From a bacterium (GTDB taxonomy: Bacteria > Patescibacteriota > Minisyncoccia > Phycocordibacterales > CAIZIN01), in NCBI GenBank assembly GCA_031409775.1, contig JANNXY010000042.1:165-64164 (forward strand): a stretch of DNA of 64,000 nt, given 5' to 3'. The notes below the pieces were generated by a model, which saw only the letters and a list, made by a program, of their open reading frames with translations, did not search any database and was not told the DNA's origin. Shown here piece after piece: positions 4,970-40,914 of the stretch. Positions within the stretch are counted from its first letter, which is position 1; each line of letters begins with the position of its first letter. Both the position numbers and the translations under genes were made by a program.

Positions 4970-5545
4970 CTAACATATATCCCGAAGGATACCAAAATCC
5001 TTTACCAAAGTATCTTTCAATTTCTGATTATAGATTGCGGCTGCGGGGTGGTAGAGCGGGATGATTTTTACTTTACCCCATTTAGAATCTGCGAGATATG
5101 ACTTGCCATGTGCAGCGGAAATTGGCTCGATCTCATAACTCAAGCCAAATTTATCCATAATATAATTCATAGAATAACGACCGAGAGTGGCGATGACTTT
5201 CGGCTTGATTATTTCTAATTCCTGATCTAGATGTGGTCCGTACAATCTGATTTCCTCGGGAGTTGGATCGCGGTTCTCTGGCGGGCGGTCGTTTACGATA
5301 TTGGTGATGTAGATATCATCTCGGCTTAGGTTTACCGACTCGAGCAATCCATCTAGAATCTTCCCTGCTGCACCACAGAAAGGTTTGCCAGATTTGGCCT
5401 CATTGCGGCCTGGAGCCTCCCCTACGAACACGATCTCAGCTGTGTGACTTCCCTCACCTACCACAGGTAAGTAGCCGTTTTCGGTGCGATATTTGTAGAG
5501 GGGTAGCTTTGTATTATTTATGAGTTCTTTGTAAATAGAGTCCAT
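4970..5545 (-). CDS. uracil-DNA glycosylase superfamily protein (family-4-like)
   Basis: 191 aa; GEAPG motif (motif A of family 4/5 UDGs) and a C-terminal HPAA motif (YHPAAAIY). Only two Cys residues, so probably no Fe-S cluster. A TATAAT box lies 6 nt upstream of the ATG, suggesting a leaderless transcript. Confidence 0.7.
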   Translation of the reverse strand: MDSIYKELINNTKLPLYKYRTENGYLPVVGEGSHTAEIVFVGEAPGRNEAKSGKPFCGAAGKILDGLLESVNLSRDDIYITNIVNDRPPENRDPTPEEIRLYGPHLDQELEIIKPKVIATLGRYSMNYIMDKFGLSYEIEPISAAHGKSYLADSKWGKVKIIPLYHPAAAIYNQKLKDTLVKDFGILRDIC

Positions 5546-5780: not shown

Positions 5781-5840
5781 TTAATGCTTGATTATCTTTC
5801 CACTTGGATGTGGACTAGAATTAGCACCTAACTCAATAGG

Positions 5841-6284
5841 TTGCTCACAGGTCGTTGGGCTAGTTCCCTCGCTGTAGTCTGGATATCGTATGAGGCTTTC
5901 AATGCTTTGCTTATTATACCACACTATGATAATGTGCAAGCAGAAAAACATCGACTTATGCACCATAATACATTATTCCACTTTGGTGAAGCTGCAATTT
6001 CACATGCAGAATTATGTGCTGAAACACTTCTCAATGCCGATCCAGATAAAATGCTTCACAGTTTGGATAAGGATGGTTTCTACTACATGCTCTATGGAGA
6101 TGAACTTAAGTATTTGATAATCTTTAGCAGATTCTTTGATCCTGAAGCGAATTTTGTTACGCTGCGCGGTTGCCCTACTGGTCCTGGGAGACAAGCTGGT
6201 AGGGACGAGATAATGAGACATATTGGGTCAGCAAAGAGATTTGCTACGGAGGTACTGGAAAGATGCAAAGAGCTCAGAGCCTAG
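5841..6284 (+). CDS. hypothetical protein (uncertain ORF)
   Basis: 147 aa ORF with no recognisable motifs. It overlaps conflicting ORFs on both strands, so the coding status is unresolved. Confidence 0.25.
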   Translation: MLTGRWASSLAVVWISYEAFNALLIIPHYDNVQAEKHRLMHHNTLFHFGEAAISHAELCAETLLNADPDKMLHSLDKDGFYYMLYGDELKYLIIFSRFFDPEANFVTLRGCPTGPGRQAGRDEIMRHIGSAKRFATEVLERCKELRA

Positions 6285-10363: not shown

Positions 10364-11329
10364 CTAGTCTTTTATATATTTAGATTTGTTTATATTGTGT
10401 TCATCGAGTGATTTGGCATAGTACATTTTCCCGTCGTCACCTGTTAGGAAATATAAATAAGGTGTATCGATAGGCGTAACTGTATCCCTGATTGACTCGA
10501 TCCCTGGATTAGATATCGGACTAGGAGGAAGGCCTTTGTATTTATAAGTATTATACGGTGAGTCCAGCTTCAGATCTGCCACAGTGAGCTCCGCACTGGT
10601 TTTATTGTTGATAAACCTAAACGTCGCATCGACCTGTAGTGGCATTCCGATCTCTAGCCTCTTCCACAATATACCCGCTACTATTCTGCGACTTTCTTTG
10701 TCATTGGCCTCTTCTTCTACTATAGAAGCCATAGTGATAATGTCCGAGAGTGGTTTGTTGAATGCACCTATTTCTTGGCTGACTTCCTTTATTCTAGTTT
10801 CGAATGTCGTTGTGAGCTTGTCTATAACAAGCGGTGTAGTGGCGAGTGGCATGAACAAATACGTATCCGGGAACAAGTAACCCTCTTTGTCCTCTGCTTT
10901 CTCTACGAATGCCTCTGCGTCGAACCCGATGAGGTTGTCTGCTAGTATCTCCGACATTTCCCTAGAACTTATTCCTTCTGGAAGAGTAATCTTCCTCGGT
11001 ATGAATCCGTAGATACCCCTACTAATACGTTTGGCAACTCCGTATACACTGAGTGGCTTCTCGAACAAATAACTACCAGCCTGTACATGTGTCTCGCTAC
11101 CTGTGAGTACTATTGCCAAATGCAGCATGGTCGGAGATCTGACTAGGCCCTGGTTCGCGAGGTGCTTGGCAATACTGTACGATCCTCTATCTGCTGGGAT
11201 TTCAACTATTGTATCAGATTCAAATGTAGGCGGTGCGAAGAAATAGTATGAAAAAACACAAATTAAAACTAGCCCTAGGATTCCAGAAATTATGATTTTG
11301 TACTTGTGGGCTTGGAACATCATATACAT
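10364..11329 (-). CDS. mltG: endolytic murein transglycosylase MltG (YceG family)
   Basis: 321 aa with an N-terminal TM and a YceG-like domain. Its start overlaps the stop of the upstream gene by 1 nt. Confidence 0.8.
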   Translation of the reverse strand: MYMMFQAHKYKIIISGILGLVLICVFSYYFFAPPTFESDTIVEIPADRGSYSIAKHLANQGLVRSPTMLHLAIVLTGSETHVQAGSYLFEKPLSVYGVAKRISRGIYGFIPRKITLPEGISSREMSEILADNLIGFDAEAFVEKAEDKEGYLFPDTYLFMPLATTPLVIDKLTTTFETRIKEVSQEIGAFNKPLSDIITMASIVEEEANDKESRRIVAGILWKRLEIGMPLQVDATFRFINNKTSAELTVADLKLDSPYNTYKYKGLPPSPISNPGIESIRDTVTPIDTPYLYFLTGDDGKMYYAKSLDEHNINKSKYIKD

Positions 11330-12624
11330 TATACTGGAAGATTACCTGGTGGTTCAGCCTTCTTGGACAGTACGCGGTCAAACGACGGAGTCTGCACCAC
11401 CTGGCCTGGGAAGTGATACACGGTTGCGAGCTCCTCGCTGTTTAGCACCATGTGCTTTTCTTTGTTGGGTTCATAGAAATAATCTCTGGCTCTATATACT
11501 TCAAATAATTCCTGCTTTTTCTTCAACAATTTTTTGCCAAATATATCTTGCCAAGGGTAGTCAAACGATGTTGCGTTCTTTGGCTTGAAGCCATTTAGAT
11601 TGTGCGAGCCGTACTGCTTGAATATACTCGTGAGCCCACCAATGTTCGATGCGTCAAAGAACTCATTCTCTGATATATACATTGCCCGGATCCCTACATC
11701 GTATGCGGGCTTGGATACACTCCTCTCGAGCGCATTGATCACTTCTGACTGACCCTTGCTCACATTGGGGAATACTTTCTGTTCCTTGCCGTCTTTGTCC
11801 TTGATCACTTGCACCGTTTCTTCTTTGATCTTCTTTATCTCCTCGGCTGCAGAATCCTTCCAATTATCTTTCTTCTTCCAGAGCTCTTTCCAGGCGTCAT
11901 TGTAACCTTTCTCTAGCAAAGTCTTCTTAAACTTTCCCCAGCGTAGAGAAAAAGGTATCAAATCCTCATCCTTGTGCCCCCGCACAATAAACTGGATCCA
12001 GACTTGCTGACGCTGTCCTACGCTTCCCAGAAACTCTATCGTAGGTGTAATAGGATCTACTTTGAATTCTTCTTCTAGGAGCTTCTCCTCTCCGATACCG
12101 AAGTCACGGTAAGTCTTTATCGGGAATGCATCCGCTTTGCTAAGCTCGATCTCGCATCCCCATAGACCGTATTCACTAGGATTGTAGTTTATCTTCTTTG
12201 TATAATCTTTGACCTCTGTGACCTCGATACCTGGATACTGTGCATATAGCTGTGTCTCTGTAAATTTCTTCCAACCTGTCCATGTCCAGATGAAGAATCT
12301 AACCTTGCCCTCGATAGATGCAAGCTCGAGTGAGAAGTACGGACGAGTCTTGCCCAAGAAGTTCCTGTCGTACCATGTACCTTCGCCGCCAGTCTGGTTC
12401 AGGTTGAGCAGGAATGCCTCCATAGCGGATGGAGTCTTGGTAACTTCTTTGGGTAATAAGATTTCCAACACTACAGGGTTCTGCTTGTTCCAGAACACGC
12501 GACGCTTGTACGCAACAAATGTTTCGAAAAACTTACCCCACAGAAGAAATGGCAAAGAGACAGTAGCTATAGTTATAGCGTACCTGATTATAGAAGGGAC
12601 ATAATCCACCAATGATTCATTCAT
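11329..12624 (-). CDS. hypothetical membrane-anchored protein (431 aa)
   Basis: N-terminal TM (IIRYAITIATVSLPFLLW) followed by a large soluble domain with no recognised motifs. Translationally coupled to mltG. Confidence 0.4.
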   Translation of the reverse strand: MNESLVDYVPSIIRYAITIATVSLPFLLWGKFFETFVAYKRRVFWNKQNPVVLEILLPKEVTKTPSAMEAFLLNLNQTGGEGTWYDRNFLGKTRPYFSLELASIEGKVRFFIWTWTGWKKFTETQLYAQYPGIEVTEVKDYTKKINYNPSEYGLWGCEIELSKADAFPIKTYRDFGIGEEKLLEEEFKVDPITPTIEFLGSVGQRQQVWIQFIVRGHKDEDLIPFSLRWGKFKKTLLEKGYNDAWKELWKKKDNWKDSAAEEIKKIKEETVQVIKDKDGKEQKVFPNVSKGQSEVINALERSVSKPAYDVGIRAMYISENEFFDASNIGGLTSIFKQYGSHNLNGFKPKNATSFDYPWQDIFGKKLLKKKQELFEVYRARDYFYEPNKEKHMVLNSEELATVYHFPGQVVQTPSFDRVLSKKAEPPGNLPV

Positions 12625-12633
12625 GTGTATATT

Positions 12634-13668
12634 CTATACTATAGAATAAATATTGTCTTTGTTTTTCTTGAAATGCTTGGGGTTCTGGAGATTTACGAGT
12701 ATTGTATTTTCTTTTACATATCTTTCTTTCATAACCTTGTCGATGATCTGCTCTTTGGTCATTGGGCCGTTTTTAGAAATTACTGACTTGATAACGTCTT
12801 TGACTACACCTGAAATATATCCCCATTCAGCTAGTGCGTATAGACCTCTACCTACGAGAACGAACCTTTTGTCTTTGATAAGCTCATTGTGAGTGGTAGC
12901 AACATGTGCGCGCTTGCCAAATATAGAAGATATCGCCTTGGCTACTTCTCTAAAGTGGATTGGTGAACCGTGTCTTCTGATAATTAGGAATGCATAGTCG
13001 CGCATGCCTTTGAGTCTGATGTTGGGTGAAGTTGCCTTGCCCCATTCACCGAGTGGGTTCTTGCCTATAGTCTTCGACATAGAGAGCCATCGCTTGATCA
13101 TTTCTTCATTCTTATACTCATCTGATAGATCCTTGACATGTTCTAGGAACTGCTTGATAAGCTCGGTCTCTGGGATTATGTCCTCATCATCTAGGTTCTC
13201 GTAGATCTTGCGGAGAGAGAGGTGAATCTTCTTGGACAACTCTTCGTCGATATGCCATCTATGGGTAAACTCATCATCGTCTTTCATTTTCTTGAATTCG
13301 GGAGCGAGAACAAGCATGAAATGAACATGGTTCTGAACTGACTTGTCTTTGCCTACTGAACGTAGTATCTCCTGCTCTGCAACGATACTTCCTAAATCCT
13401 TTATTATCTTTTGTAATTCTTCGAATGGTGCACGCTCTTTCTTGTATACATCAGATTTGCGGATGTTCTGGAGTGCGTATTCTTCGATCTGTCGAACACG
13501 CTCACGGGTGATGCCGTATTTCTTGCCTATTGCTTCTAGGGTGACTTTCTTCTGATCTGTACCTAGTCCATAACGAGCCGTGAGTATATCCCGGGCGCGG
13601 ACTGGTAATGCGCCTAAAAGCTTTTTAACTACCTGCTTTGGTTTGAATTCCATGCGTGTGGTTGTCAT
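12634..13668 (-). CDS. sigma-70 region-4-like HTH DNA-binding protein with C-terminal winged-helix-like region
   Basis: N-terminal segment LPVRARDILTARYGL...TLEAIGKKYGITRERVRQIEEYAL resembles sigma region 4. No sigma regions 2 or 3 were recognised. Confidence 0.45.
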   Translation of the reverse strand: MTTTRMEFKPKQVVKKLLGALPVRARDILTARYGLGTDQKKVTLEAIGKKYGITRERVRQIEEYALQNIRKSDVYKKERAPFEELQKIIKDLGSIVAEQEILRSVGKDKSVQNHVHFMLVLAPEFKKMKDDDEFTHRWHIDEELSKKIHLSLRKIYENLDDEDIIPETELIKQFLEHVKDLSDEYKNEEMIKRWLSMSKTIGKNPLGEWGKATSPNIRLKGMRDYAFLIIRRHGSPIHFREVAKAISSIFGKRAHVATTHNELIKDKRFVLVGRGLYALAEWGYISGVVKDVIKSVISKNGPMTKEQIIDKVMKERYVKENTILVNLQNPKHFKKNKDNIYSIV

Positions 13669-13715
13669 AATTAAACAATTTATAAATAAAGATAGTTAGT
13701 AGATTATCATTATTA

Positions 13716-16559
13716 TCAATTTCCGTCAACTACAATACTGACTAGCCTGCCAGGGACGTATATTTCCTTCTTTATTACCCTCCCGGCGATCCACTTATCC
13801 ACAGCTGGTAGGGCTCTAGTAAGCTCAATAACATCTTTCTGTGTCGCTTCCCTGCTTACTTCTAGTTCAGCCCTAACCTTGCCATTTACCTGTATCGCAA
13901 TCTTTATAGTATCTGAAACAAGCTTGGATGCATCGTATGAGGGCCAGTTTGCCTTGTGGACAGAGGATTTGTGGCCTATCTGGCTCCAGAGCTCTTCGGT
14001 TACATGTGGGGCAAATGGGGCAAGTAGCTGGAGCACGGTCTCGTAGACTTTATTATTTACGCTTTCTTCTTTCTCTAGTCTATTTAAGAGGATCATAAGT
14101 GTAGAGATGGCGGTGTTGAACGACATTTTCTCTATATCTTCGCTTACTTTCTTTATACTTTGATTAAGTAGAATTTCTACGTCAGAGGGAGTTTTAATCT
14201 TCTTGTCCAATTTCTCTGCTAGCTTCCAAACGCGTTCCACGAACCTACGTGAGCCAACTACACTATCTGAACTCCATGCAACAGGTTGGTCAAATGGACC
14301 CATGAACATTTCAAATACACGGAGACTATCTGCTCCATAGATCTTTACCAAGTCATCCGGATTAACAACATTACCCTTTGATTTGGACATTTTTTCTCCG
14401 CCTTCAGCAAGTATTAGCCCGTGGGAGGTTCTCTTAGCGTATGGTTCAATCGTAGGAACTTCTCCGATATCATAGAGAAATTTGTGCCAGAATCGAGAAT
14501 ACAAAAGATGCAGCGTAGTATGCTCCATGCCGCCGTTGTACCAGTCCACTGGGGTCCATTTATCAAGCTTATTCTTGTCAGCGAAAGATTTTTTATTCTT
14601 TGGGTCTATATATCGCAAATAATACCAAGAAGATCCAGCCCAGTTGGGCATTGTATCTGTTTCCCTTTCAGCATCGCCCTTACACTTCGGGCATTGGACG
14701 TTGACCCATTTGGAAATAGTTGATAGCGGGGACTCTCCGTTGTCAGTGGGCTCATAATGCTTTACTTTGGGCAATACGACCGGCAAATCCTTCTCTGGTA
14801 CAGGTACCCAACCACAATCATTACAATTTATCATTGGAATTGGCTCTCCCCAATATCGCTGGCGAGAGAAGACCCAGTCTTTCAATTTATACTTTACGAC
14901 CTTACGGCCGAATTCATTTGTAATTTTTCCTTTTGCTTCATTTGCAGTTAGTCCATCAAACTCGCCTGAGTTGATTACAATTCCATCGCCTGTGTAAGGA
15001 GGGAAATATTCTGAACTCATGCGTTCGAGCCAGAACTTGAGCTCTGAGTTTACCATTTTGCCTACAACGAATTCCTGAGGGGAAACCCACAATATTTCAT
15101 TGGTTTCTTCTTCACCAGCAGCTATTTCAGTTCTATCGTTTCCAATAAGTTCGAAATACGCAGCGGTCGTGATGGCCACTCTGTTTTCATCTTTGTGTTT
15201 AGCAAAGTAAGAAGCTTGCACCGGTCCCCCGAGAGTTTTTATAAATTTCAAATTTGTGTAGCCAGTTTCCTCTATAACTTCGCGGACAGCAGCTTGTTCT
15301 GCGCTTTCATTTTCTTCTATCCCACCTATCACCACGGTATCCCATCCAAATTTACTATTGCGGATAATCAAGTATTTATCTTGGTTCGGATCGTACACTA
15401 TCGCATGTGCATTCTTCCTTACTTTAGAGGACTTGTCTGACCTCGGAGGATTCACATGGTCTACAACCGAAGGCATGATTACGTCTCTTATTTCCAAATC
15501 GTATTTCTTTGCGAATTTAAAGTCACGTTCATCGTGAGCTGGCACTGCCATTACTGCACCTGTTCCATAATTAACCAGAACATAGTCTGCTATCCAAATC
15601 GGAATTTCTTCCCCTGTTGCAGGGTTTATGGCTACTACGCCTTTTACTTCCACCCCAGTCTTTTCCTTGGTAGCATCAGTTCTGTCTATCTCGGTTTTGT
15701 CTTTTGATTTTTTTATATAATCCTCTACTTCCTTTTTATTTTCTATTGGGAGTTCAGCTATCAGCCTGTGTTCTGGTGCTAGCACGATATAGGTTACGCC
15801 ATATAGTGTGTCGGCACGAGTGGTAAATACTGTGATTTTCTCAGAACTGTCCTTGATCTGGAAATCAATCTCCGCACCTTCACTCCTACCAATCCAATTG
15901 CGTTGCTGGATCTTTATCTTTTCAAGGAAATCTACAGTGTCCAAATCTTTGTCCAATCTGTCTGCGTATTTGGTGATAGCAAGCATCCATTGATCCTTGT
16001 CCCTCTTTTCTACTGCAGTTCCACATCGTTCACATTTACCATCTACTACCTCTTCGTTGGCGAGGCCGATTTTATCTTTGGGACACCAATTTATATTCAT
16101 TTTGGATTTGTAAGCCAAACCTTTCTCAAACATCTTTAGAAATATCCACTGTGTCCATTTATAGTATTCGGGATCAGTTGTATTGACCTCTCGTGACCAG
16201 TCAAAGGAAGCTCCTAAGTTTTTAATTTGTTTTCTGAAATTACCTGTATTTTGCTTAGTAACAAACGCGGGCTGTTTACCAGTTTTAATAGCATAGTTTT
16301 CAGTAGGAAGTCCAAATGCATCCCATCCCATGGGATAAAGCACGTTAAACCCTTCTACTCGTCTCTTCCTTGCAATTGCATCCAGGGCAATATATGGCCT
16401 CACATGACCGACATGGAGACCGTCGCCAGACGGAAAAGGAAATTCAACCAGTGCATAGAATTTAGGCTTATCTGTCTTTTCGCTTGTTTTATAAAGCTTC
16501 TTCTCTTCCCACTTCTTCTGCCATTTCTTCTCTATTTTCTTGTGATCATAAGACTTCAT
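13716..16559 (-). CDS. leuS: leucyl-tRNA synthetase with inserted Nudix-fold domain
   Basis: HVGH (HIGH), editing-domain TTRADT and AVPAHDERD motifs, and KMSKSKGN. At 947 aa it is longer than E. coli LeuS because of a ~140 aa insertion containing GGIEENESAEQAAVREVIEETGY, which fits GX5EX7REUXEEXGU. Confidence 0.95.
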   Translation of the reverse strand: MKSYDHKKIEKKWQKKWEEKKLYKTSEKTDKPKFYALVEFPFPSGDGLHVGHVRPYIALDAIARKRRVEGFNVLYPMGWDAFGLPTENYAIKTGKQPAFVTKQNTGNFRKQIKNLGASFDWSREVNTTDPEYYKWTQWIFLKMFEKGLAYKSKMNINWCPKDKIGLANEEVVDGKCERCGTAVEKRDKDQWMLAITKYADRLDKDLDTVDFLEKIKIQQRNWIGRSEGAEIDFQIKDSSEKITVFTTRADTLYGVTYIVLAPEHRLIAELPIENKKEVEDYIKKSKDKTEIDRTDATKEKTGVEVKGVVAINPATGEEIPIWIADYVLVNYGTGAVMAVPAHDERDFKFAKKYDLEIRDVIMPSVVDHVNPPRSDKSSKVRKNAHAIVYDPNQDKYLIIRNSKFGWDTVVIGGIEENESAEQAAVREVIEETGYTNLKFIKTLGGPVQASYFAKHKDENRVAITTAAYFELIGNDRTEIAAGEEETNEILWVSPQEFVVGKMVNSELKFWLERMSSEYFPPYTGDGIVINSGEFDGLTANEAKGKITNEFGRKVVKYKLKDWVFSRQRYWGEPIPMINCNDCGWVPVPEKDLPVVLPKVKHYEPTDNGESPLSTISKWVNVQCPKCKGDAERETDTMPNWAGSSWYYLRYIDPKNKKSFADKNKLDKWTPVDWYNGGMEHTTLHLLYSRFWHKFLYDIGEVPTIEPYAKRTSHGLILAEGGEKMSKSKGNVVNPDDLVKIYGADSLRVFEMFMGPFDQPVAWSSDSVVGSRRFVERVWKLAEKLDKKIKTPSDVEILLNQSIKKVSEDIEKMSFNTAISTLMILLNRLEKEESVNNKVYETVLQLLAPFAPHVTEELWSQIGHKSSVHKANWPSYDASKLVSDTIKIAIQVNGKVRAELEVSREATQKDVIELTRALPAVDKWIAGRVIKKEIYVPGRLVSIVVDGN

Positions 16560-16578
16560 ATAGTAGTAACATATACTA

Positions 16579-17571
16579 CTATTCCATCGGCTTTGTGTCT
16601 ATCGGATAGCGCTTGGGATCGATAGTACGAGTAAAGCAATTAGCGCCTTCGGTATGCTCGAAGCTCTCGTTCATTGGGAAACCGCCAATACTCGTATCCA
16701 TATCCATCGCAGGATAAGGATAGGTCATTGAACCACCATAGCTTCCACGACCCTTGTTATCGTCCGTAGCTAGGGCGAAATCAGCACAGATTTCAAACGC
16801 TGGCGAGGTCGAGGCTACTTTATTATATCCATATACCTGACCTGATTCTGGATCTAGGAACTGATCTTTTACTTCTGGATATAGTGGATCGATAAGCTCA
16901 TCTAGAGTCTCTGGGACTGCACCTGTGCGCTGATAATGGCTCACAACCTGCCACTGAATGTTCTGCAAATTCTCAATACGAGTCTGATCATCACGAAGCT
17001 TGCGCTGATCCTGTGGCAATCCAACGATAAATAATCCGCCAATTATACTTACGATAACTACCACCGAAGTAACTGTGGTAAAAATTCTTAATAAATTAGG
17101 TTTCGAAAAATATATTTGTCGTAGGTCGCGAACTGTGTACCAAAACACCGCAAATGCCACAATGAAAACTACTGCAAATTTAGAGACAAATCTGCTTGAA
17201 ATCTCGCCAGAAAGGAAAGTGTTGATAAGGCTTATGAGGTCGCCTGCAACCACTACCCCCGCAACAAACAAAGTAAAATAAGAAAGCCATCTGCGTACCG
17301 ACCAATCTCGAAGTGCCTCGTTGCTTTTTAATTCCTTGAACATGAGTTTGGACAGATAGATAAGTATAGGAAATGCAACGACGAGTGTTGACAGCGCGAA
17401 CCTGATCGGAGAATAAAAAGGGTTATAGTCTCCAGCCAGTCTGTCTGGGAATACATAGTCGATCACTCCGAACGCGAACACTAGGAAGCTAGTGACAGAT
17501 GTATACAGGGCAGCGACAATTCCAATCTGCAAGAAGAAATCTTTTGCTTTTGAGTTGTGATTTGTAGACAT
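16579..17571 (-). CDS. integral membrane protein with C-terminal extracytoplasmic domain (hypothetical)
   Basis: 330 aa; several N-terminal TM helices then a soluble C-terminal region; no specific family recognised. Confidence 0.4.
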   Translation of the reverse strand: MSTNHNSKAKDFFLQIGIVAALYTSVTSFLVFAFGVIDYVFPDRLAGDYNPFYSPIRFALSTLVVAFPILIYLSKLMFKELKSNEALRDWSVRRWLSYFTLFVAGVVVAGDLISLINTFLSGEISSRFVSKFAVVFIVAFAVFWYTVRDLRQIYFSKPNLLRIFTTVTSVVVIVSIIGGLFIVGLPQDQRKLRDDQTRIENLQNIQWQVVSHYQRTGAVPETLDELIDPLYPEVKDQFLDPESGQVYGYNKVASTSPAFEICADFALATDDNKGRGSYGGSMTYPYPAMDMDTSIGGFPMNESFEHTEGANCFTRTIDPKRYPIDTKPME

Positions 17572-17642
17572 GATTCGTGATTAATAACAATAAGTGCTTA
17601 TTATACTATAATTAAAAAACTGCGAACACTATTTGTTCACAG

Positions 17643-17957
17643 TTATGCATACCCGACAGGACCCTCGTACGCGAGTGGTTCAGGTATTACCTGATCTGGT
17701 TCAGGTTCTGGTTCTGCAGGCATGTCGTCAGGAGCTGAACCATTTTTTTTAACCTTTTCCTCTATTGCTGGGACCGTTTTACTTTTTAAACTTATAATCG
17801 CAGGGACAAATAAGATGACAGTGCAATAGGAAGTTGCTGCAAAGAAAAAAAGCATCAAATACAGGTGCTTGTTGCTTTTCTTCCAAATTGAGTAAATTAT
17901 AAACCCTGTGATTATTACTGCGTCAAAGATCAATACCGCATATTGTGTTGTAGACAT
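17643..17957 (-). CDS. small membrane protein with acidic/Pro-rich C-terminus
   Basis: Likely start at MSTTQYAVLIF; two TM helices; C-terminal PEPEPEPD tract. Confidence 0.35.
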   Translation of the reverse strand: MSTTQYAVLIFDAVIITGFIIYSIWKKSNKHLYLMLFFFAATSYCTVILFVPAIISLKSKTVPAIEEKVKKNGSAPDDMPAEPEPEPDQVIPEPLAYEGPVGYA

Positions 17958-18016
17958 AGATTTTCTTTCTTCTGCCCTAAACTCTATACTTATTGCACAA
18001 ATTTGCAAGTGTTGTG

Positions 18017-19087
18017 TTAGACCTTGAACTCCATTACATCCCCATCCTTCACAATGTATTCCTTGCCTTCTGTGCGCCAGTTGCCTTTCTTTAGTAATTC
18101 CTCCCAGGATATAACATCAGCTTTGATGAACTTCTCCTCAAAGTCACCATGGATCGCTGCGCCTGCCTGCGGCGCTGTCGAACCGTCTAGTATGGTCCAG
18201 GCACGAGTCTCCTTCTCCCCTGTTGTGAAATATGTTGCGAGGTTCAGTAGCTTGTAACCGGTCTTTATAAGGTCGTCTACTCCATCTGAGCTTGCCCCGA
18301 GTTCTTTGCGGAACATTTCTTTCTCTTCGCCCTGGAAGTCTTTGAGCTCATGCTCAACCCCCGCGTCAACAATCACATAGGTAAAACTATTTTTATTTAA
18401 AAATTCAACAAGCTTCTGAAAACGCTCATCATTGGTTTCGTCGAGGTTTGTCGCACCAGCCTTCTTATTGAGTACATACATAAATGGCTTCATGGTAAGC
18501 AGATGTAAATGCTTCGCTATCACCTTTTCTTCTTTGGTTAGTTTGCATTGGTTGGCGAGTAGTCCCGTCTCTAGTACCACAGCGAGTTTCTCACATACAG
18601 CAAGCTCGGCGATGGCATCCTTCTTGCCAGCCTTTACGTCTTTGCCTAGATTACCTATACGCCTCTTTACCGTTTCTTGGTCAGCCAATATTAATTCCAA
18701 ATTAATAACTTCGATATCAGACAATGGATCGATCTTGTTGTTTACATGGAGTATATTTCCGTCTTCAAATATTCTCACCACTTCGCATATCGCATCCGTC
18801 TCGCGGATATTCGACAGGAATGCATTGCCGAGCCCTTCGCCTGCAGATGCGCCCTTTACAAGCCCTGCGATGTCTACGAATTCGATCGCTGCTGGGATCG
18901 TCTTCTGAGTTTTACTAAACTCCGCGAGCTTGTACAGCCTCTCGTCCGGCACCGCAACCACCCCTACAGACGGGTCAATGGTTGCAAATGGATAATTGGC
19001 AATAAGCACACCCTTATTTGTAAGTGCATTAAACAACGTCGATTTCCCCACATTTGGCAGTCCTACAATTCCTAAAGATAATTTCAT
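18017..19087 (-). CDS. ychF: ribosome-binding ATPase YchF (Obg family, TGS domain)
   Basis: G1 motif GIVGLPNVGKSTLFNALT; 356 aa with a C-terminal TGS-like region. Confidence 0.9.
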   Translation of the reverse strand: MKLSLGIVGLPNVGKSTLFNALTNKGVLIANYPFATIDPSVGVVAVPDERLYKLAEFSKTQKTIPAAIEFVDIAGLVKGASAGEGLGNAFLSNIRETDAICEVVRIFEDGNILHVNNKIDPLSDIEVINLELILADQETVKRRIGNLGKDVKAGKKDAIAELAVCEKLAVVLETGLLANQCKLTKEEKVIAKHLHLLTMKPFMYVLNKKAGATNLDETNDERFQKLVEFLNKNSFTYVIVDAGVEHELKDFQGEEKEMFRKELGASSDGVDDLIKTGYKLLNLATYFTTGEKETRAWTILDGSTAPQAGAAIHGDFEEKFIKADVISWEELLKKGNWRTEGKEYIVKDGDVMEFKV

Positions 19088-28443: not shown

Positions 28444-30024
28444 TTAAACCACTTCCTTAAATCTCTTGATTAGAAATTCGCGGTCGAGGACAGAGAGGAA
28501 CCAGCCGGCCTTGGGACCAGAAGATTTTCCTAGAATGGAGAGGTAGATCGCGGAGAAGAATTCTTTGGGTTCGATTTGAAGACTTTCTTTGATCTCATGA
28601 AGCTTGGTGTGGAATGCCTGGCCTTCGATAGACTGATTCGCCTCGATGAATTCTACGAGCAGAGTAAGTGCCTGTTTCTGGATATCAGAGAAGTTCTTTG
28701 CACTTTCTGGTACTTCCTTTTTAATTTCGAATTTATATTCCTCGGGAGCGAATTCTGCAATCCATTTCTGTACATATGTGATACGGTGAAGCAATTCTTT
28801 CTTGTCTTCGTCGGTGAGAGTAATTTCTTGGAGTTTTTCAATTTCCTTTACTGGATCCAAATGCGGCATCTGGGAAATGAATGCGACAGTTGAAAACCTC
28901 GGCAAATGCCTCTCGGTAATATTGCCCTGATCCTCTGGCTTATGCGATAGGTAAAAGGCGCGGGTGAAATCGTCTTTAACACCTCCGAAATACTTTTTCG
29001 CGTAAGTATCGTAGTTATCAAATAGAATTGGCACGGTATCTCCTGCCGGATCGAATTCGAGGACCTTCATTGGTTCTTTGTATATAAGTAAAAATCTAAA
29101 TAACTCTGCAGGGAGTAAATCTGCAATCTCTCGCGATGATGACCCAGCACCTTTGGAACTGGACATTTTCTTGCCACCGACTTGAAAGAATTCATAAGGA
29201 ATGTTAAATGGTGGCTCAACACCGAACACTTCGCGAGCGATGGTATCTGCGACTTCCCTTGCACCACCTTTGGTCGAGTGATCCTTGCCGCCTCCCTCTA
29301 CATGGACTCCGATTATCTTGAACTTGGCAGCCCATTCTACCTTCCACGGAAGCTTGGCACGACCATCAAACGGAGATATCCTGCCCTGCTTGCCACATCC
29401 CGTGGCCCATTTGACGAAGTCACCACATGTATACTCGACTGTCTCCCCGTCCCAGTTTCGAGCCTTGGTAGTCCCCACCTTGCCACACTGCTCACATACC
29501 ACAGAAAGCGCGAGCCAATCATCAGCACGAACTGAGCCAGAAATTCTCTTGTAAATTTCTCGGATCTTGTCTGCATTATCTAGAGCGAGCCTGATAGCTT
29601 CGTTATATTTACCAGACTTGTACAATTCACTAGATCGGTAGAATTCCGGATAGAATCCTGTATCAGTTATCACCTGCATGAACTCGCTCGCGAAATATTC
29701 TGCATAGTTGGTTGCTATCGCATCAGGAGACGGGACGTTGCACAGAGGCTTGCCCATGTGCTCTCTGAATTTATTTTCATCCAGATACACCGGCAATCCA
29801 TCCATCGGATCATAGTCGTTGATTTCGTAAAGGAATTTGTGAAAGATTCCTTTCTCCTTTAGCACCTCATCGATCATGCCATGTATTGCAACACCTCGCA
29901 TCGATCCTACATGTACGCGACCAGAGGCGGTCTTCTCGTCACGTATGACAAGAGGCTTGCCGCTCTTTATAACAGCGTCAAAATGCTTTTCTATTTCCGA
30001 TCCTATTCGGTCGGTCCAAAACAT
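28444..30024 (-). CDS. lysK: lysyl-tRNA synthetase, class I (LysK type)
   Basis: HVGS (HIGH-like) at RVHVGSMRG and KMSSSKG signature typical of class I LysRS; 526 aa. Confidence 0.85.
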   Translation of the reverse strand: MFWTDRIGSEIEKHFDAVIKSGKPLVIRDEKTASGRVHVGSMRGVAIHGMIDEVLKEKGIFHKFLYEINDYDPMDGLPVYLDENKFREHMGKPLCNVPSPDAIATNYAEYFASEFMQVITDTGFYPEFYRSSELYKSGKYNEAIRLALDNADKIREIYKRISGSVRADDWLALSVVCEQCGKVGTTKARNWDGETVEYTCGDFVKWATGCGKQGRISPFDGRAKLPWKVEWAAKFKIIGVHVEGGGKDHSTKGGAREVADTIAREVFGVEPPFNIPYEFFQVGGKKMSSSKGAGSSSREIADLLPAELFRFLLIYKEPMKVLEFDPAGDTVPILFDNYDTYAKKYFGGVKDDFTRAFYLSHKPEDQGNITERHLPRFSTVAFISQMPHLDPVKEIEKLQEITLTDEDKKELLHRITYVQKWIAEFAPEEYKFEIKKEVPESAKNFSDIQKQALTLLVEFIEANQSIEGQAFHTKLHEIKESLQIEPKEFFSAIYLSILGKSSGPKAGWFLSVLDREFLIKRFKEVV

Positions 30025-30034
30025 TTTTTTAACA

Positions 30035-30499
30035 TTAGGCTATATCGATAACTTTGTAATTTACTTCACCTTTGGGAGTATTGAATGTGAATGCTTCGCC
30101 TTTCTTTTTGCCCATGAGAGCTGCACCTAGAGGAGATACGTATGAGATCTTGCCTTCGGCGGTGTTGGTCTCCTCGGATCCGACGATTTTAAAAACTTTC
30201 TTTTCTTTGTCGCCTTCTTTCTGAGCTGTTACAGTAGAACCTATTTCTACTTTCTCGCTATGATGGAGGGCCATTATGACAGCGGATTTGAGTAGGTTCT
30301 CGAGCTTCATTATGCGCTCCTCTGTAGATGCCTGGAGCTCGCGAGCCTGTTGGTATTCGGCGTTCTCTGATAAATCCCCCAGGCTTTTGGCATATTCTAG
30401 GGATTCTGCGATTTCTTTGCGCTTGCTGGATTTGAGCACTTCTAGCTCCGCTCTTAGCTCTTCAAATTTTTCTTTTGTTAGGTATTCTTTATCGTTCAT
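30035..30499 (-). CDS. greA: transcription elongation factor GreA
   Basis: 154 aa; N-terminal coiled-coil and C-terminal FKBP-like domain typical of GreA. Confidence 0.9.
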   Translation of the reverse strand: MNDKEYLTKEKFEELRAELEVLKSSKRKEIAESLEYAKSLGDLSENAEYQQARELQASTEERIMKLENLLKSAVIMALHHSEKVEIGSTVTAQKEGDKEKKVFKIVGSEETNTAEGKISYVSPLGAALMGKKKGEAFTFNTPKGEVNYKVIDIA

Positions 30500-34248: not shown

Positions 34249-35490
34249 TTATGATAGCCATTCGATTATTTCTGTCATAGATTTGACCACGGTCTTGCCT
34301 GTCTGGCGATTCTTTACCTCTACTGCATCCTGATGCGACTTCTTGCCAACTATTATCTGATACGGGATACCGATGAGGTCTGCATCAGCGAATTTCTCCC
34401 CCGCTCTCACGCCCTCGCGGTCGTCATAAAGCACTGCACCATCGAGCTCTTTGTAAATATCATCTGCCAAGGACTTAACAGTTTGCTCCTCTGGTGACAG
34501 ACAGAGCAGATGTGCTCTAAATGGAGCGACAGATTCTGGCCAGACAATACCTTTTTCGTCTGACAGAACTTCGACAATAGTACCCATGAGTCTAGTAATA
34601 CCGATGCCATATGAACCCATGATCACTGGTATCTGCTCACCTTTCTCGTCTTTGTAATTTAAATCTAGCTTGTCAGAAAACTTTGTACCTAGGTTAAATA
34701 TATTTCCAACTTCGATAGATTTCTTCTCTATCAATTTGCTAGTATCGATCCCGAGCTTCTCGCCAATACCTGACTCCATAACTTCTTGGTTTATAGAGAT
34801 TCCTTTCTCTGTATCTACAAACACTGTGTCTTCTCCTGCATCAGAAATAGTCTGGAACTCATCAGAGAATTCGCTAAATATTCCACCAGAGGCAAATGTT
34901 TTCATAGTGATGCCACCTAACCCAGCTCTCGCAAATACTTTCATATACGCTTCGCTTGCTTTCTCATAAAACTCTGCATGTTCGGTATCTGTTCTGGAGA
35001 ATGAATATAGATCCTTCATCAAGAATTCTTTGCCGCGCATGATGCCGGATTTGGCTCGCAATTCATTGCGAAATTTGGTTTGGAATTGGTAAGCGTATTT
35101 AGGCAGGTCTCGATACGACTGGATATACTCAGCCATGATCGCTGTGAGTGGCTCCTCGTGGGTGATACCAAGCCCTGTCTCACCACCGGATTTGAACTCA
35201 GTCTTGAACCAATTATCGACAACAGCGTCATTCCACCTGCCGGTGCGCTCCCAAGTTTCTTTGTTCTGAAGTGCTGTGAGTGATATCTCCTGTCCACCGA
35301 TATTGTTCATTTCTTCTCTCACAATATTTTTCAAATTATCTATTACCTTTAATCCTAATGGCAAATACGAATAAACTCCGGCCATTTCCTTGTGCACATA
35401 GCCTGCACGTATGAGTAATTGCGCGTTCTTTGAAACTTCATCGGCTGGAGCCTCCTTCCTGGTCTTTGTAAATAGTTGTGATTGCTTCAT
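34249..35490 (-). CDS. proS: prolyl-tRNA synthetase (class II, short form lacking the INS editing domain)
   Basis: Typical bacterial ProRS N-terminus (MKQSQLFTKTRKEAPADEVSKNAQLLIRAGYV) but only 413 aa. Confidence 0.85.
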   Translation of the reverse strand: MKQSQLFTKTRKEAPADEVSKNAQLLIRAGYVHKEMAGVYSYLPLGLKVIDNLKNIVREEMNNIGGQEISLTALQNKETWERTGRWNDAVVDNWFKTEFKSGGETGLGITHEEPLTAIMAEYIQSYRDLPKYAYQFQTKFRNELRAKSGIMRGKEFLMKDLYSFSRTDTEHAEFYEKASEAYMKVFARAGLGGITMKTFASGGIFSEFSDEFQTISDAGEDTVFVDTEKGISINQEVMESGIGEKLGIDTSKLIEKKSIEVGNIFNLGTKFSDKLDLNYKDEKGEQIPVIMGSYGIGITRLMGTIVEVLSDEKGIVWPESVAPFRAHLLCLSPEEQTVKSLADDIYKELDGAVLYDDREGVRAGEKFADADLIGIPYQIIVGKKSHQDAVEVKNRQTGKTVVKSMTEIIEWLS

Positions 35491-35868
35491 GCATGTATTC
35501 TACTTGAAATTACCATATCCTCCAAACCCTTGACACTTCCGTTGTTTATTTATAATATAATTTTCAGTATGTCTATCCTACAACTTGTTCTTTTCCTTTT
35601 AGCTATCATCGGCTTTTCATTTGGATTTATCTTCTTGATTGGTGCATTAATTGATGGAGCAATATTTCCACTTTGTATCCCTAGTTGGTTATTTGGAATT
35701 TCCTTCTGGGAATTCTTGTGGTCTACAAAAGACCCTGAACCCACTACACACATACTCATTGGATCAGTCCTGTTTGTATTATTTTTATTCGGACTTTTCA
35801 CCTGTATATTCATTTACAACCAAGAGCGAATAAAAAATTTTCTGAGTGAACAGTTTGATTCATGGTAA
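35482..35868 (+). CDS. small integral membrane protein (hypothetical)
   Basis: 128 aa with 3-4 hydrophobic helices; no homology. Confidence 0.3.
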   Translation: MLHACILLEITISSKPLTLPLFIYNIIFSMSILQLVLFLLAIIGFSFGFIFLIGALIDGAIFPLCIPSWLFGISFWEFLWSTKDPEPTTHILIGSVLFVLFLFGLFTCIFIYNQERIKNFLSEQFDSW

Positions 35869-40869: not shown

Positions 40870-40914
40870 TTGGTGGTAATAGTAATATCTTTTGCTTAGG
40901 TTTACAATGTAAAC

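What the first reader, a model, noticed from the sequence alone, without database searches (positions are those of the whole stretch)
15015..15437. Nudix hydrolase fold inserted in frame inside leucyl-tRNA synthetase
LeuS here is 947 aa. The editing-site region (AVPAHDERD) is conserved. Downstream of it, E. coli LeuS has only a short linker of roughly 45 residues before the conserved NSGEF segment; that figure comes from recalled sequence. This gene instead carries ~185 residues there (aa ~346-530). The extra ~140 aa contains a perfect Nudix box, G-GIEEN-E-SAEQAAV-RE-V-I-EE-T-G-Y, which fits GX5EX7REUXEEXGU at nt 15258-15326. The flanks are LeuS in the same frame, so the insert is expressed as part of the synthetase. 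A pyrophosphohydrolase module next to the editing and aminoacylation sites is not a described LeuS feature. One possibility is hydrolysis of aminoacyl-adenylate, Ap4A or other nucleotide by-products. Another is a separately folding enzymatic or regulatory domain.
Basis: partly seen in the sequence, partly recalled or inferred. Interest (0 to 1): 0.75.

Follow-up and report, generated by a model that had tools for sequence, protein, structure and literature searches.

The report
Nudix enzyme nested inside leucyl-tRNA synthetase
This bacterium's leucyl-tRNA synthetase carries a complete, apparently active Nudix pyrophosphatase domain spliced into its proofreading domain, an undescribed arrangement shared by hundreds of related tiny-genome (Patescibacteria) bacteria that hints at a link between tRNA charging and nucleotide by-product clean-up.

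Summary

It is not a one-off. All 120 closest LeuRS homologues carry the domain, and 149 species-representative genomes, nearly all labelled Patescibacteria/Parcubacteria, matched two insert-specific peptide patterns. Relatives have Nudix copies at three sites in LeuRS, up to three per protein. 93% of full-length proteins keep at least one canonical box.

The same Nudix subfamily is also nested in ProRS. As a free-standing gene it sits within two genes of an aaRS gene in 6 of 11 cases examined (argS, thrS, two types of leuS, proS twice).

The closest folds are an uncharacterised Nudix, RppH and ApnA hydrolases. No curated subfamily threshold is reached.

My best inference, untested, is a small-molecule dinucleoside-polyphosphate (Ap4A-type) hydrolase coupled to aaRS chemistry. 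I found no published description.

The parts
13716..16559 (-). leuS CDS, 947 aa, bacterial-type leucyl-tRNA synthetase with a nested Nudix domain
   Evidence: ORF. TIGR00396 scores 1023.6 bits against a cut-off of 548.4. The full-length AF2 model has pLDDT 89.1 and matches solved bacterial LeuRS structures with TM 0.82-0.83.
14997..15476 (-). The insertion: aa 362-521, comprising two linkers and the Nudix domain. It replaces the 14-residue loop (residues 363-376) of T. thermophilus LeuRS.
   Evidence: Alignment to 1h3n; coordinates.
15048..15419 (-). Nudix fold core, aa 381-504
15258..15326 (-). Nudix box GGIEENESAEQAAVREVIEETGY (aa 412-434). It contains the metal-binding/catalytic residues E418, R426, E427, E430 and E431.
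   Evidence: Regex match. G412, E427 and G433 are invariant, and E418, R426, E430 and E431 are conserved in at least 90% of 96 homologues. The box is intact in 90 of 96.
15180..15209 (-). X-loop region downstream of the box: Y451 (17 residues after the box end) and the conserved K456-D-E-N459-R460 motif
   Evidence: K456 and N459 are invariant and R460 is at least 90% conserved. Position +17 is Y (90) or F (82) in 187 site-A copies with a canonical box. The significance of the X-loop is taken from PMC5389931.
15111..15113 (-). E483, a conserved acidic residue outside the Nudix box. It is a candidate extra catalytic or metal ligand.
   Evidence: At least 90% conserved in A1 and invariant in A2 as E118. 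The proposed role is inferred by analogy with other Nudix enzymes and was not tested.
15477..15902 (-). CP1 editing domain, N-terminal part (aa 220-361). It includes the Thr-rich TTRADT motif (nt 15807-15824) and AVPAHDERD (nt 15522-15548).
   Evidence: PF13603 matches aa 220-367 to profile positions 1-146 of 185. T246, T247, R248, D250, T251, D343, R345 and D346 are invariant in 96 homologues.
14880..14996 (-). CP1 editing domain, C-terminal part, which resumes after the insert (aa 522 to about 560, YTGDGIVINSGEF...)
   Evidence: Aligns to Tth 377 onwards. The end point is approximate.
16404..16415 (-). HIGH motif (HVGH, aa 49-52) of the aminoacylation site
   Evidence: H49, G51 and H52 are invariant.
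14379..14393 (-). KMSKS motif (aa 723-727) of the aminoacylation site
   Evidence: K723, S725 and K726 are invariant.

Best explanation
SHOWN. This is a bacterial-type LeuRS whose catalytic (HIGH, KMSKS) and editing (Thr-rich, GTG/Asp) sites are intact. A surface hairpin loop of the CP1 editing domain has been replaced by a complete Nudix pyrophosphohydrolase domain, so one domain is nested in another that is itself nested in the Rossmann fold. The insertion is old and vertically inherited across Parcubacteria/Paceibacteria-type Patescibacteria. Its catalytic residues are under purifying selection, so the protein is most likely a bifunctional enzyme.

INFERRED. The Nudix module is an acidic enzyme acting on small molecules, from the polyphosphate-chain branch of the superfamily (RppH, ApnA hydrolases, MutT1). 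It most likely hydrolyses dinucleoside polyphosphates such as Ap4A/Np4N, which aminoacyl-tRNA synthetases make when ATP attacks the enzyme-bound aminoacyl-adenylate. Fusing the hydrolase to a synthetase, or encoding it next to one, would guarantee that it is made with, and stays close to, a source of these nucleotides in organisms with minimal genomes. I do not claim that LeuRS proofreading itself uses the Nudix site.
For: Architecture:
- Profile, motif and alignment evidence.
- Confident fold and Nudix structural neighbours.

Conservation:
- All 120 best LeuRS homologues carry PF00293.
- An exhaustive phmmer search gave 470 cluster representatives, and most of the 150 listed are LeuRS proteins or fragments.
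- 149 species-representative genomes encode it, and all 80 retrieved loci show LeuRS flanks.
- The box is intact in 90 of 96 homologues, and 146 of 157 full-length proteins keep at least one canonical box.
- Editing and synthetic motifs are invariant.

Link to aaRS in general:
- The same subfamily is nested in ProRS (P0260 and L095).
- Free-standing relatives lie 13 nt after argS, 86 nt before thrS, 2 nt before a LeuS-Nudix gene and 35 nt after an archaeal-type leuS.
- Two more lie within two genes of proS.
- In total 4 of 11 are adjacent and 6 of 11 are within two genes. The rough binomial probabilities are 0.0016 and 0.0003, assuming chance rates of 5% and 10%.

Substrate class:
- Top characterised fold neighbours are RppH, Rv2985/MutT1, Ndx1 and the Aquifex and lupin Ap4A hydrolases.
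- RppH models are the NCBIfam families hit by all 28 members tested.
- An aromatic residue sits at box +17, in the X-loop, where a Tyr correlates with ApnA hydrolases.
- The domain is acidic: pI 5.0 in the window and a family median of 5.7, against 8.6 for the LeuRS scaffold. This argues for a small-molecule substrate rather than RNA.
- According to the literature, aaRSs are a main Ap4A source, and Nudix enzymes including RppH degrade it (PMC10148737).
Against: - No activity was measured.
- No curated Nudix subfamily model reaches its cut-off; the best score is 31.6 bits against a required 103.
- The box +17 residue is Phe rather than Tyr in about half the family.
- From my own knowledge, untested here, LeuRS is a weak Ap4A producer and ArgRS makes none.
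- Several observations fit a host-independent housekeeping role. The subfamily also occurs in an M17 aminopeptidase and an S51 peptidase, next to fpg/mutM, and next to the dUTPase, ITPase and Tmk house-cleaning genes. Unrelated hydrolases (alpha/beta, HAD, His_Phos_1) are nested in the same aaRS scaffolds.
- The tools do not expose model coordinates, so I could not measure the geometry between the Nudix site and the LeuRS sites.
Confidence: 0.45

Rival explanations
1. The Nudix domain is an autonomous housekeeping enzyme with no mechanistic tie to LeuRS. It would act as a nucleotide-pool sanitiser or general NDP-X hydrolase (MutT-like, NTP/dNTP, ADP-sugar). Under this view it was fused into an essential, constitutively expressed gene as part of a general tendency of streamlined Patescibacteria genomes to nest small hydrolases in large proteins. 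The only benefit would be co-expression.
For: - The same subfamily exists as a separate gene. It is also nested in non-aaRS hosts: an M17 aminopeptidase with GNAT domains, and an S51 peptidase.
- One free-standing member follows fpg/mutM.
- Another sits among thymidylate kinase, dUTPase and ITPase-family genes.
- Five of 11 free-standing members have no aaRS nearby.
- LeuRS and IleRS of these organisms also host alpha/beta-hydrolase, HAD and histidine-phosphatase domains.
- JGI names the standalone members 'MutT (NUDIX family)'.
Against: - MutT models are matched only weakly and by few members (6-7 of 28).
- The enrichment next to or inside five different aaRS types, including fused and unfused combinations with both bacterial-type and archaeal-type leuS, is hard to explain by chance.
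- Repeated independent insertions into LeuRS at three sites suggest selection for the association.
Confidence: 0.3
2. The domain is an RppH-like RNA 5'-end pyrophosphohydrolase or decapping enzyme. It would remove pyrophosphate or Np4A/NAD-type caps from RNA, possibly including tRNA(Leu) bound to the synthetase.
For: - RppH NCBIfam models are hit by 28 of 28 members.
- The best profile-to-PDB sequence hits are the decapping effectors AvrM14-A and AvrM14-B.
- The host protein binds RNA.
Against: - Scores are far below the RppH cut-offs (24 bits against 116).
- The domain is acidic, with net charge -7 in the window and a family median of -4, unlike an RNA-binding surface.
- RNase P leaves a 5' monophosphate on tRNA (established knowledge), so tRNA offers no obvious substrate.
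- The free-standing and peptidase-fused relatives have no RNA-binding partner.
Confidence: 0.12
3. The insert is mainly a structural or regulatory module of LeuRS. It could, for example, modulate CP1 movement between the aminoacylation and editing states, or act as a nucleotide sensor. Catalysis would then be irrelevant or vestigial.
For: - About 7% of full-length proteins have no canonical box. In multi-copy proteins, all ten second copies at site B and both site-C copies lack a strict box.
- The insertion sites lie in or next to the mobile CP1 region.
Against: - 93% of full-length proteins retain at least one canonical box.
- The catalytic Glu and Arg residues are among the few invariant or nearly invariant positions in an otherwise fast-evolving insert.
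- Reference LeuRS proteins work without the domain.
Confidence: 0.05
4. The feature is an artefact or a selfish element: an assembly chimera, a frameshifted gene pair, an intein or a mobile insertion.
For: None found. A few database entries are short fragments annotated as 'MutT'.
Against: - The identical protein occurs on two independent contigs.
- The architecture recurs in more than 150 full-length proteins from independent sources (NCBI, JGI, ENA, Logan) and in 80 of 80 retrieved genome loci.
- Base composition is uniform.
- The junction sequences (...DVI|MPSVVDH... and ...YFPP|YTGDG...) show no intein-type Cys/Ser/Thr or His-Asn junction residues.
Confidence: 0.01

Closest known systems
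Canonical bacterial LeuRS (T. thermophilus 1H3N/2BYT; E. coli 4AQ7/4ARC)
   Same: The scaffold, the HIGH and KMSKS motifs and the CP1 editing domain with Thr-rich and Asp motifs are all shared. Sequence identity is 34-37% and TM-score 0.82-0.83.
   Different: The reference proteins have a 14-residue loop where this protein has a 160-residue Nudix module. This protein also lacks the leucine-specific domain before KMSKS, where it has only EGGE.
E. coli RppH (NudH/YgdP), an RNA pyrophosphohydrolase and Ap4A/Np4A-cap hydrolase
   Different: Only 18-20% identity, and far below the family cut-off. This domain is acidic and is nested in a synthetase rather than free-standing.
Nudix-type ApnA hydrolases: Aquifex aq_158 (3I7U), lupin 1F3Y, T. 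thermophilus Ndx1, and M. tuberculosis Rv2985 / M. smegmatis MutT1
   Different: No significant subfamily-level sequence membership. Phe replaces Tyr in about half the family. Activity is untested.
Enterococcus faecalis MutT/Nudix protein 2AZW
   Different: It is a free-standing structural-genomics protein with no function named in the entry, so it gives no functional transfer.
Other class Ia synthetases carrying an extra enzyme domain, e.g. NCBIfam NF040702 'isoleucine--tRNA ligase, N-acetyltransferase domain-containing'
   Same: This is a precedent for a bacterial aaRS fused to an unrelated enzyme. The family name appears in the scan output.
   Different: The partner domain and the host are different. 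Here the partner is nested inside the editing domain, which a 2026 survey of domain insertions recorded as never acting as a host (PMC13114784).

Membership tests
Nudix hydrolase superfamily (PF00293) | Profile match above the Pfam gathering score | tested here: met
   51.2 bits against 21.1, E 1.7e-13, aa 381-504.
Nudix hydrolase superfamily (PF00293) | Nudix box GX5EX7REUXEEXGU | tested here: met
   aa 412-434 match exactly. The box is conserved in 90 of 96 homologues.
Nudix hydrolase superfamily (PF00293) | Alpha/beta/alpha Nudix fold | tested here: met
Nudix hydrolase superfamily (PF00293) | Metal-dependent pyrophosphohydrolase activity | not testable with these tools
   Requires an enzyme assay.
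Bacterial leucyl-tRNA synthetase (TIGR00396) | Equivalog model above its cut-off, with HIGH and KMSKS motifs and a CP1 editing domain containing the Thr-rich and Asp motifs | tested here: met
   1023.6 bits against 548.4. Motif positions come and their invariance. PF13603 scores E 1e-68.
Nudix-type Ap4A/ApnA hydrolase | Tyr in the X-loop about 17 residues downstream of the box (Dunn 1999, as summarised in PMC5389931) | tested here: inconclusive
   The window has Y451 at box end +17. Across the family the residue is Y in 90 and F in 82 of 187 copies. I could not check the exact counting convention of the original paper.
Nudix-type Ap4A/ApnA hydrolase | Hydrolysis of Ap4A to ATP + AMP | not testable with these tools
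   Requires an enzyme assay.
RppH (NCBIfam PRK00714 models) | Equivalog model above its cut-off | tested here: not met
   Best score for the window insert is 24.2 bits against a cut-off of 116. All 28 members hit only weakly.
RppH (NCBIfam PRK00714 models) | Basic RNA-binding surface | tested here: not met
   The insert has pI 5.0 and net charge -7, and the family median pI is 5.7. This is a sequence-level proxy only.
MutT 8-oxo-dGTPase (TIGR00586 / PRK10776) | Equivalog model above its cut-off | tested here: not met
   16.4 bits against 148. Only 6-7 of 28 members give any hit.
NudB dihydroneopterin-triphosphate diphosphatase (PRK09438) | Equivalog model above its cut-off | tested here: not met
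   31.6 bits against 103.

The most novel reading that the evidence does not exclude
This Nudix subfamily is a dedicated partner of aminoacyl-tRNA synthetases. It would be physically or operonically coupled to LeuRS, ProRS, ArgRS, ThrRS and IleRS in ultra-small bacteria, in order to destroy Ap4A/Np4N (or another adenylate-derived by-product) at its source. On this reading, Patescibacteria LeuRS is a true bifunctional enzyme that both charges tRNA and clears an alarmone, and the repeated insertions at three LeuRS sites reflect selection for that coupling.
Probability: 0.3. Interest if true: 0.8.

Novelty: new variant of a known kind. Interest (0 to 1): 0.6.

Why it matters
Three reasons.

1. 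Aminoacyl-tRNA synthetases have been known since the 1960s to make Ap4A, but whether cells manage that by-product at the synthetase itself is still open. A natural fusion that is clade-wide and under selection, together with repeated gene adjacency to five different synthetases, is Rosetta-stone-type evidence for such a link. It also provides a single polypeptide on which to test the idea.

2. It shows that the LeuRS editing domain, recently catalogued as never hosting another domain, tolerates a 160-residue enzyme in a surface loop. That is relevant to aaRS engineering and to annotation: NCBI names several of these proteins only 'class I tRNA ligase family protein'.

3. It exposes a wider, undescribed habit in Patescibacteria of nesting small hydrolases (Nudix, HAD, alpha/beta hydrolase, histidine phosphatase) inside class I synthetases.

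Tried and rejected
- The search for related loci with the 28-sequence insert alignment failed because no stretch was conserved enough. It worked with a 6-sequence alignment.
- The AFDB50 fold library was unavailable, so I could not list UniProt/AFDB entries with this architecture.
- The structure tool returns no coordinates. I therefore could not measure the distance or orientation between the Nudix metal site and the LeuRS synthetic and editing sites.
- Five literature searches found no description. They combined Nudix with leucyl-tRNA synthetase, aaRS, Parcubacteria, editing domain, CP1 and Patescibacteria, or CPR with aaRS and domain insertion. The library lacks most subscription journals, so this is absence of evidence only.
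- NCBIfam scans gave no subfamily assignment.
- PDB sequence searches gave only weak, mixed Nudix hits.
- No tRNA gene lies in the window, so tRNA(Leu) could not be inspected.
- I considered and rejected an assembly chimera or frameshift (recurrence), an intein or mobile element (no junction motifs, uniform GC), and a recent horizontal insertion (copies within one protein are only 20-45% identical).
- I considered aminoacyl-adenylate hydrolysis. I rank it low because the acyl-phosphate mixed anhydride is not a typical Nudix substrate. This rests on established knowledge of the superfamily and was not tested.
Full report

Yes. The window has one uninterrupted minus-strand ORF, 13716..16559, encoding 947 aa. 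It scores 1023.6 bits against the bacterial leuS equivalog TIGR00396 (cut-off 548.4). The match comes in two pieces that break at profile position 376/377.

Pfam finds the LeuRS editing domain PF13603 at aa 220-367, but only profile positions 1-146 of 185. It finds NUDIX PF00293 at aa 381-504 with E 1.7e-13 and 51.2 bits, against a gathering score of 21.1.

The strict Nudix box GX5EX7REUXEEXGU matches once, at aa 412-434 = nt 15258-15326. The finding's 15015-15437 equals aa 375-515. It is the only such box in any six-frame ORF of the window.

Against T. thermophilus LeuRS (1h3n), aa 1-361 pair with Tth 1-362 and aa 522-732 with Tth 377-593. So 160 residues stand where Thermus has 14. Base composition is uniform across the gene.

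**2. What is it structurally?**

The insert alone (aa 366-522, modelled with 27 homologous inserts) folds with pLDDT 92.7 and pTM 0.85 into a beta-sheet/helix Nudix-like topology. In the full-length model (pLDDT 89.1, pTM 0.78) the same region stays confident. It emerges between two short beta-strands, aa 364-366 and about 527-528.

The LeuRS motifs HVGH, KMSKS, TTRADT and AVPAHDERD are all present. They are invariant among 96 homologues. The synthetase therefore looks fully functional, and the Nudix domain is nested inside CP1, which is itself an insertion in the Rossmann fold.

**3. How widespread is it?**

- All 120 best-scoring LeuRS homologues (59-67% identity where alignable) carry PF00293 according to precomputed Pfam. 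The few named ones are Patescibacteria, Paceibacterota or Paceibacter.
- An exhaustive phmmer search of 1.84 billion cluster representatives with the insert alone found 470 hits at E of 1e-3 or better. Most of the 150 listed are LeuRS proteins or LeuRS fragments with the domain at the same place.
- A scan of one genome per species found 149 genomes, using only two peptide patterns. The 80 retrieved loci include ones labelled Giovannoni-, Vogel-, Taylor-, Nomura-, Yanofsky-, Wolfe-, Wildermuth-, Staskawicz-, Moran-, Magasanik- and Uhrbacteria.
- All 80 loci have LeuRS sequence on one or both sides of the domain, and 77 have it on both.
- Some record titles say Gammaproteobacteria, Saccharibacteria or Fimivivens. 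I treat these automated MAG labels as unreliable.

**4. Conservation**

The insert evolves faster than the scaffold. The mean frequency of the commonest residue per column is 0.56, against 0.71-0.82 for the scaffold regions. The catalytic positions are nevertheless fixed. R381, W406, G412, E427, G433, K456, N459 and W491 are invariant. G413, E418, A424, R426, E430, E431, T432, R460, L471 and E483 are conserved in at least 90% of sequences. The box is canonical in 90 of 96 homologues.

**5. Unexpected extras in relatives**

Mapping every Nudix copy onto LeuRS coordinates gives three insertion sites:

| Site | Position (window numbering) | Copies |
|---|---|---|
| A | about aa 361, the site used here | 211 |
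| B | about aa 210-240, at the entrance to CP1 | 44, often two in tandem |
| C | about aa 580-630 | 2 |

- Some LeuRS proteins have three copies (P0125, P0128, P0024, P0027, P0038). Copies within one protein are only 20-45% identical, so the duplications are old.
- One Magasanikbacteria locus (L073) has a copy only at site B.
- Of 157 full-length proteins, 146 keep at least one canonical box. Second site-B copies and site-C copies are usually degenerate.
- Some LeuRS proteins additionally host an alpha/beta-hydrolase domain (PF06821/PF00561) or a HAD domain (PF13419).

**6. Clues to function from where the subfamily occurs**

The same Nudix subfamily, at 30-42% identity to the insert, is found in several other settings:

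- nested in a ProRS (P0260, and L095:2762-4693);
- nested in an M17 aminopeptidase with two GNAT domains (P0253);
- fused to an S51 peptidase (P0288).

I looked up the genomic context of 11 free-standing members.

| Member | Context |
|---|---|
| P0273 | 13 nt downstream of argS; close to an ileS that hosts a histidine-phosphatase domain and is followed by another Nudix |
| P0285 | 86 nt upstream of thrS-miaA |
| P0145 | 2 nt upstream of a LeuS-Nudix gene, in the same synteny as this window |
| P0224 | 35 nt downstream of an archaeal-type leuS with no nested Nudix |
| P0153, P0167 | within two genes of proS |
| five others | no aaRS nearby; one follows fpg/mutM |

I assumed a 5% chance of being adjacent to an aaRS gene and a 10% chance of being within two genes. 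These rates are rough figures for a genome of about 800 genes with about 20 aaRS genes. Under them, 4 of 11 and 6 of 11 give probabilities of 0.0016 and 0.0003. The sample is small and the members are not fully independent, but five different synthetases are involved.

**7. Most likely mechanism**

Shown: a catalytically competent-looking Nudix domain is expressed as part of an intact LeuRS.

Inferred: it acts on a small nucleotide substrate common to aaRS chemistry.

Ap4A/Np4N is the best candidate for these reasons:

- aaRSs are a principal Ap4A source, and Nudix enzymes, including RppH and Aquifex aq_158, degrade it (PMC10148737).
- The characterised fold neighbours are concentrated in the polyphosphate-chain branch of the superfamily.
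- RppH models are the NCBIfam families matched by all members, though far below cut-off.
- The X-loop residue 17 positions after the box is Tyr in this protein and Tyr or Phe across the family. A Tyr there correlates with ApnA hydrolases (PMC5389931).
- The domain is acidic, pI 5.0 against 8.6 for the scaffold. This disfavours an RNA substrate.

Weaknesses:

- No assay has been done.
- Structural scores are nearly flat across Nudix specificities.
- LeuRS is not known as a strong Ap4A producer (my own knowledge).
- The subfamily also occurs in non-aaRS hosts and in house-cleaning neighbourhoods. This fits the rival view that it is an autonomous housekeeping enzyme that has merely been fused.

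My probabilities are about 0.45 for the aaRS-coupled ApnA-type hydrolase and 0.30 for uncoupled housekeeping. I give 0.12 to RppH-like RNA end processing, 0.05 to a mainly structural role and about 0.01 to an artefact.

**8. Comparison with what is known**

The protein is a member of the Nudix superfamily and of bacterial LeuRS; the sequence and structural membership tests are met, and catalytic activity was not testable. It is not a member of the RppH, MutT or NudB equivalogs, whose cut-offs are not reached.

Enzyme-aaRS fusions exist elsewhere, for example the NCBIfam family 'isoleucine--tRNA ligase, N-acetyltransferase domain-containing' listed. I found no description of a Nudix domain nested in LeuRS:

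- The 2017 review of the Nudix clan contains no occurrence of 'tRNA'.
- A 2026 survey of domain insertions records PF13603 as an insertion-only module with no host events.
- Five full-text searches found nothing relevant.

The sequences themselves are already in public databases and carry automatic Pfam hits. The novelty is therefore interpretive: a new variant of a known kind.

**9. Verdict**

This is a real, ancient and selectively maintained bifunctional architecture. It is typical of a large bacterial radiation rather than unique to this genome. Its biochemical role is unknown but experimentally tractable. Interest score: 0.6.

Noticed in passing
window 14394-14405 (aa 719-722, minus strand): This LeuRS lacks the leucine-specific domain. 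Thermus residues from about 594 to 636 have no counterpart, and only the tetrapeptide EGGE precedes KMSKS.
   Followed up: partly
P0125, P0128, P0024, P0027, P0038; L013:4001-6394: Related LeuRS proteins carry two or three Nudix copies, at sites about aa 210-240 (often in tandem) and about aa 361. Rare copies occur at about aa 580-630. Copies within one protein are only 20-45% identical, and second copies usually have degenerate boxes.
   Followed up: partly
P0012, P0024 (alpha/beta hydrolase PF06821/PF00561); P0051 (HAD PF13419): Some Patescibacteria LeuRS proteins also host an alpha/beta-hydrolase domain or a HAD phosphatase domain, in addition to Nudix.
   Followed up: no
L082:7386-10889 (+): An IleRS of 1167 aa with a histidine-phosphatase domain (His_Phos_1, aa 506-669) nested in it. 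A 141-aa Nudix gene follows directly. Thymidylate kinase, dUTPase and an ITPase-family gene are nearby.
   Followed up: no
P0260; L095:2762-4693 (+): A ProRS (TIGR00408 type) with the same Nudix subfamily inserted between the anticodon-binding domain and the C-terminal domain. A free-standing paralogue lies two genes upstream in L095.
   Followed up: partly
L091:1069-4492: An archaeal-type LeuRS (965 aa, PRK12300/TIGR00395) without a nested Nudix is followed 35 nt later by a free-standing member of the same Nudix subfamily.
   Followed up: partly
P0253 (1318 aa): An M17 leucyl-aminopeptidase-family protein with two GNAT domains and Nudix domain(s) of this subfamily inserted.
   Followed up: no
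L003:3085-3602: A Giovannonibacteria LeuRS has about 170 extra residues near site B that did not register as Nudix in tblastn. This may be a degenerate copy or another domain.
   Followed up: no
window 5789-5888 (-): A borderline SAM riboswitch hit (RF00162, 44.5 bits against a gathering score of 44.4). It lies about 240 nt upstream of a uracil-DNA glycosylase family gene (4970-5545), which is an odd target for a SAM riboswitch.
   Followed up: no
window 34252-35499 (-) and 28447-30039 (-): The window also encodes a minimal ProRS (416 aa; core plus anticodon domain only) and a class I LysRS (531 aa). Neither carries a nested domain.
   Followed up: no
window 11329-19087 (-); also the contig: The gene order YchF GTPase, DUF5671, leuS, Sigma70_r4/HARE-HTH protein, DUF8128 is conserved in a relative. 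In that relative an extra free-standing Nudix gene sits between DUF5671 and leuS.
   Followed up: partly
whole window: Almost all long ORFs are on the minus strand; only one ORF of at least 250 aa, 40900-42792, is on the plus strand. No tRNA genes were found in the 64 kb.
   Followed up: no
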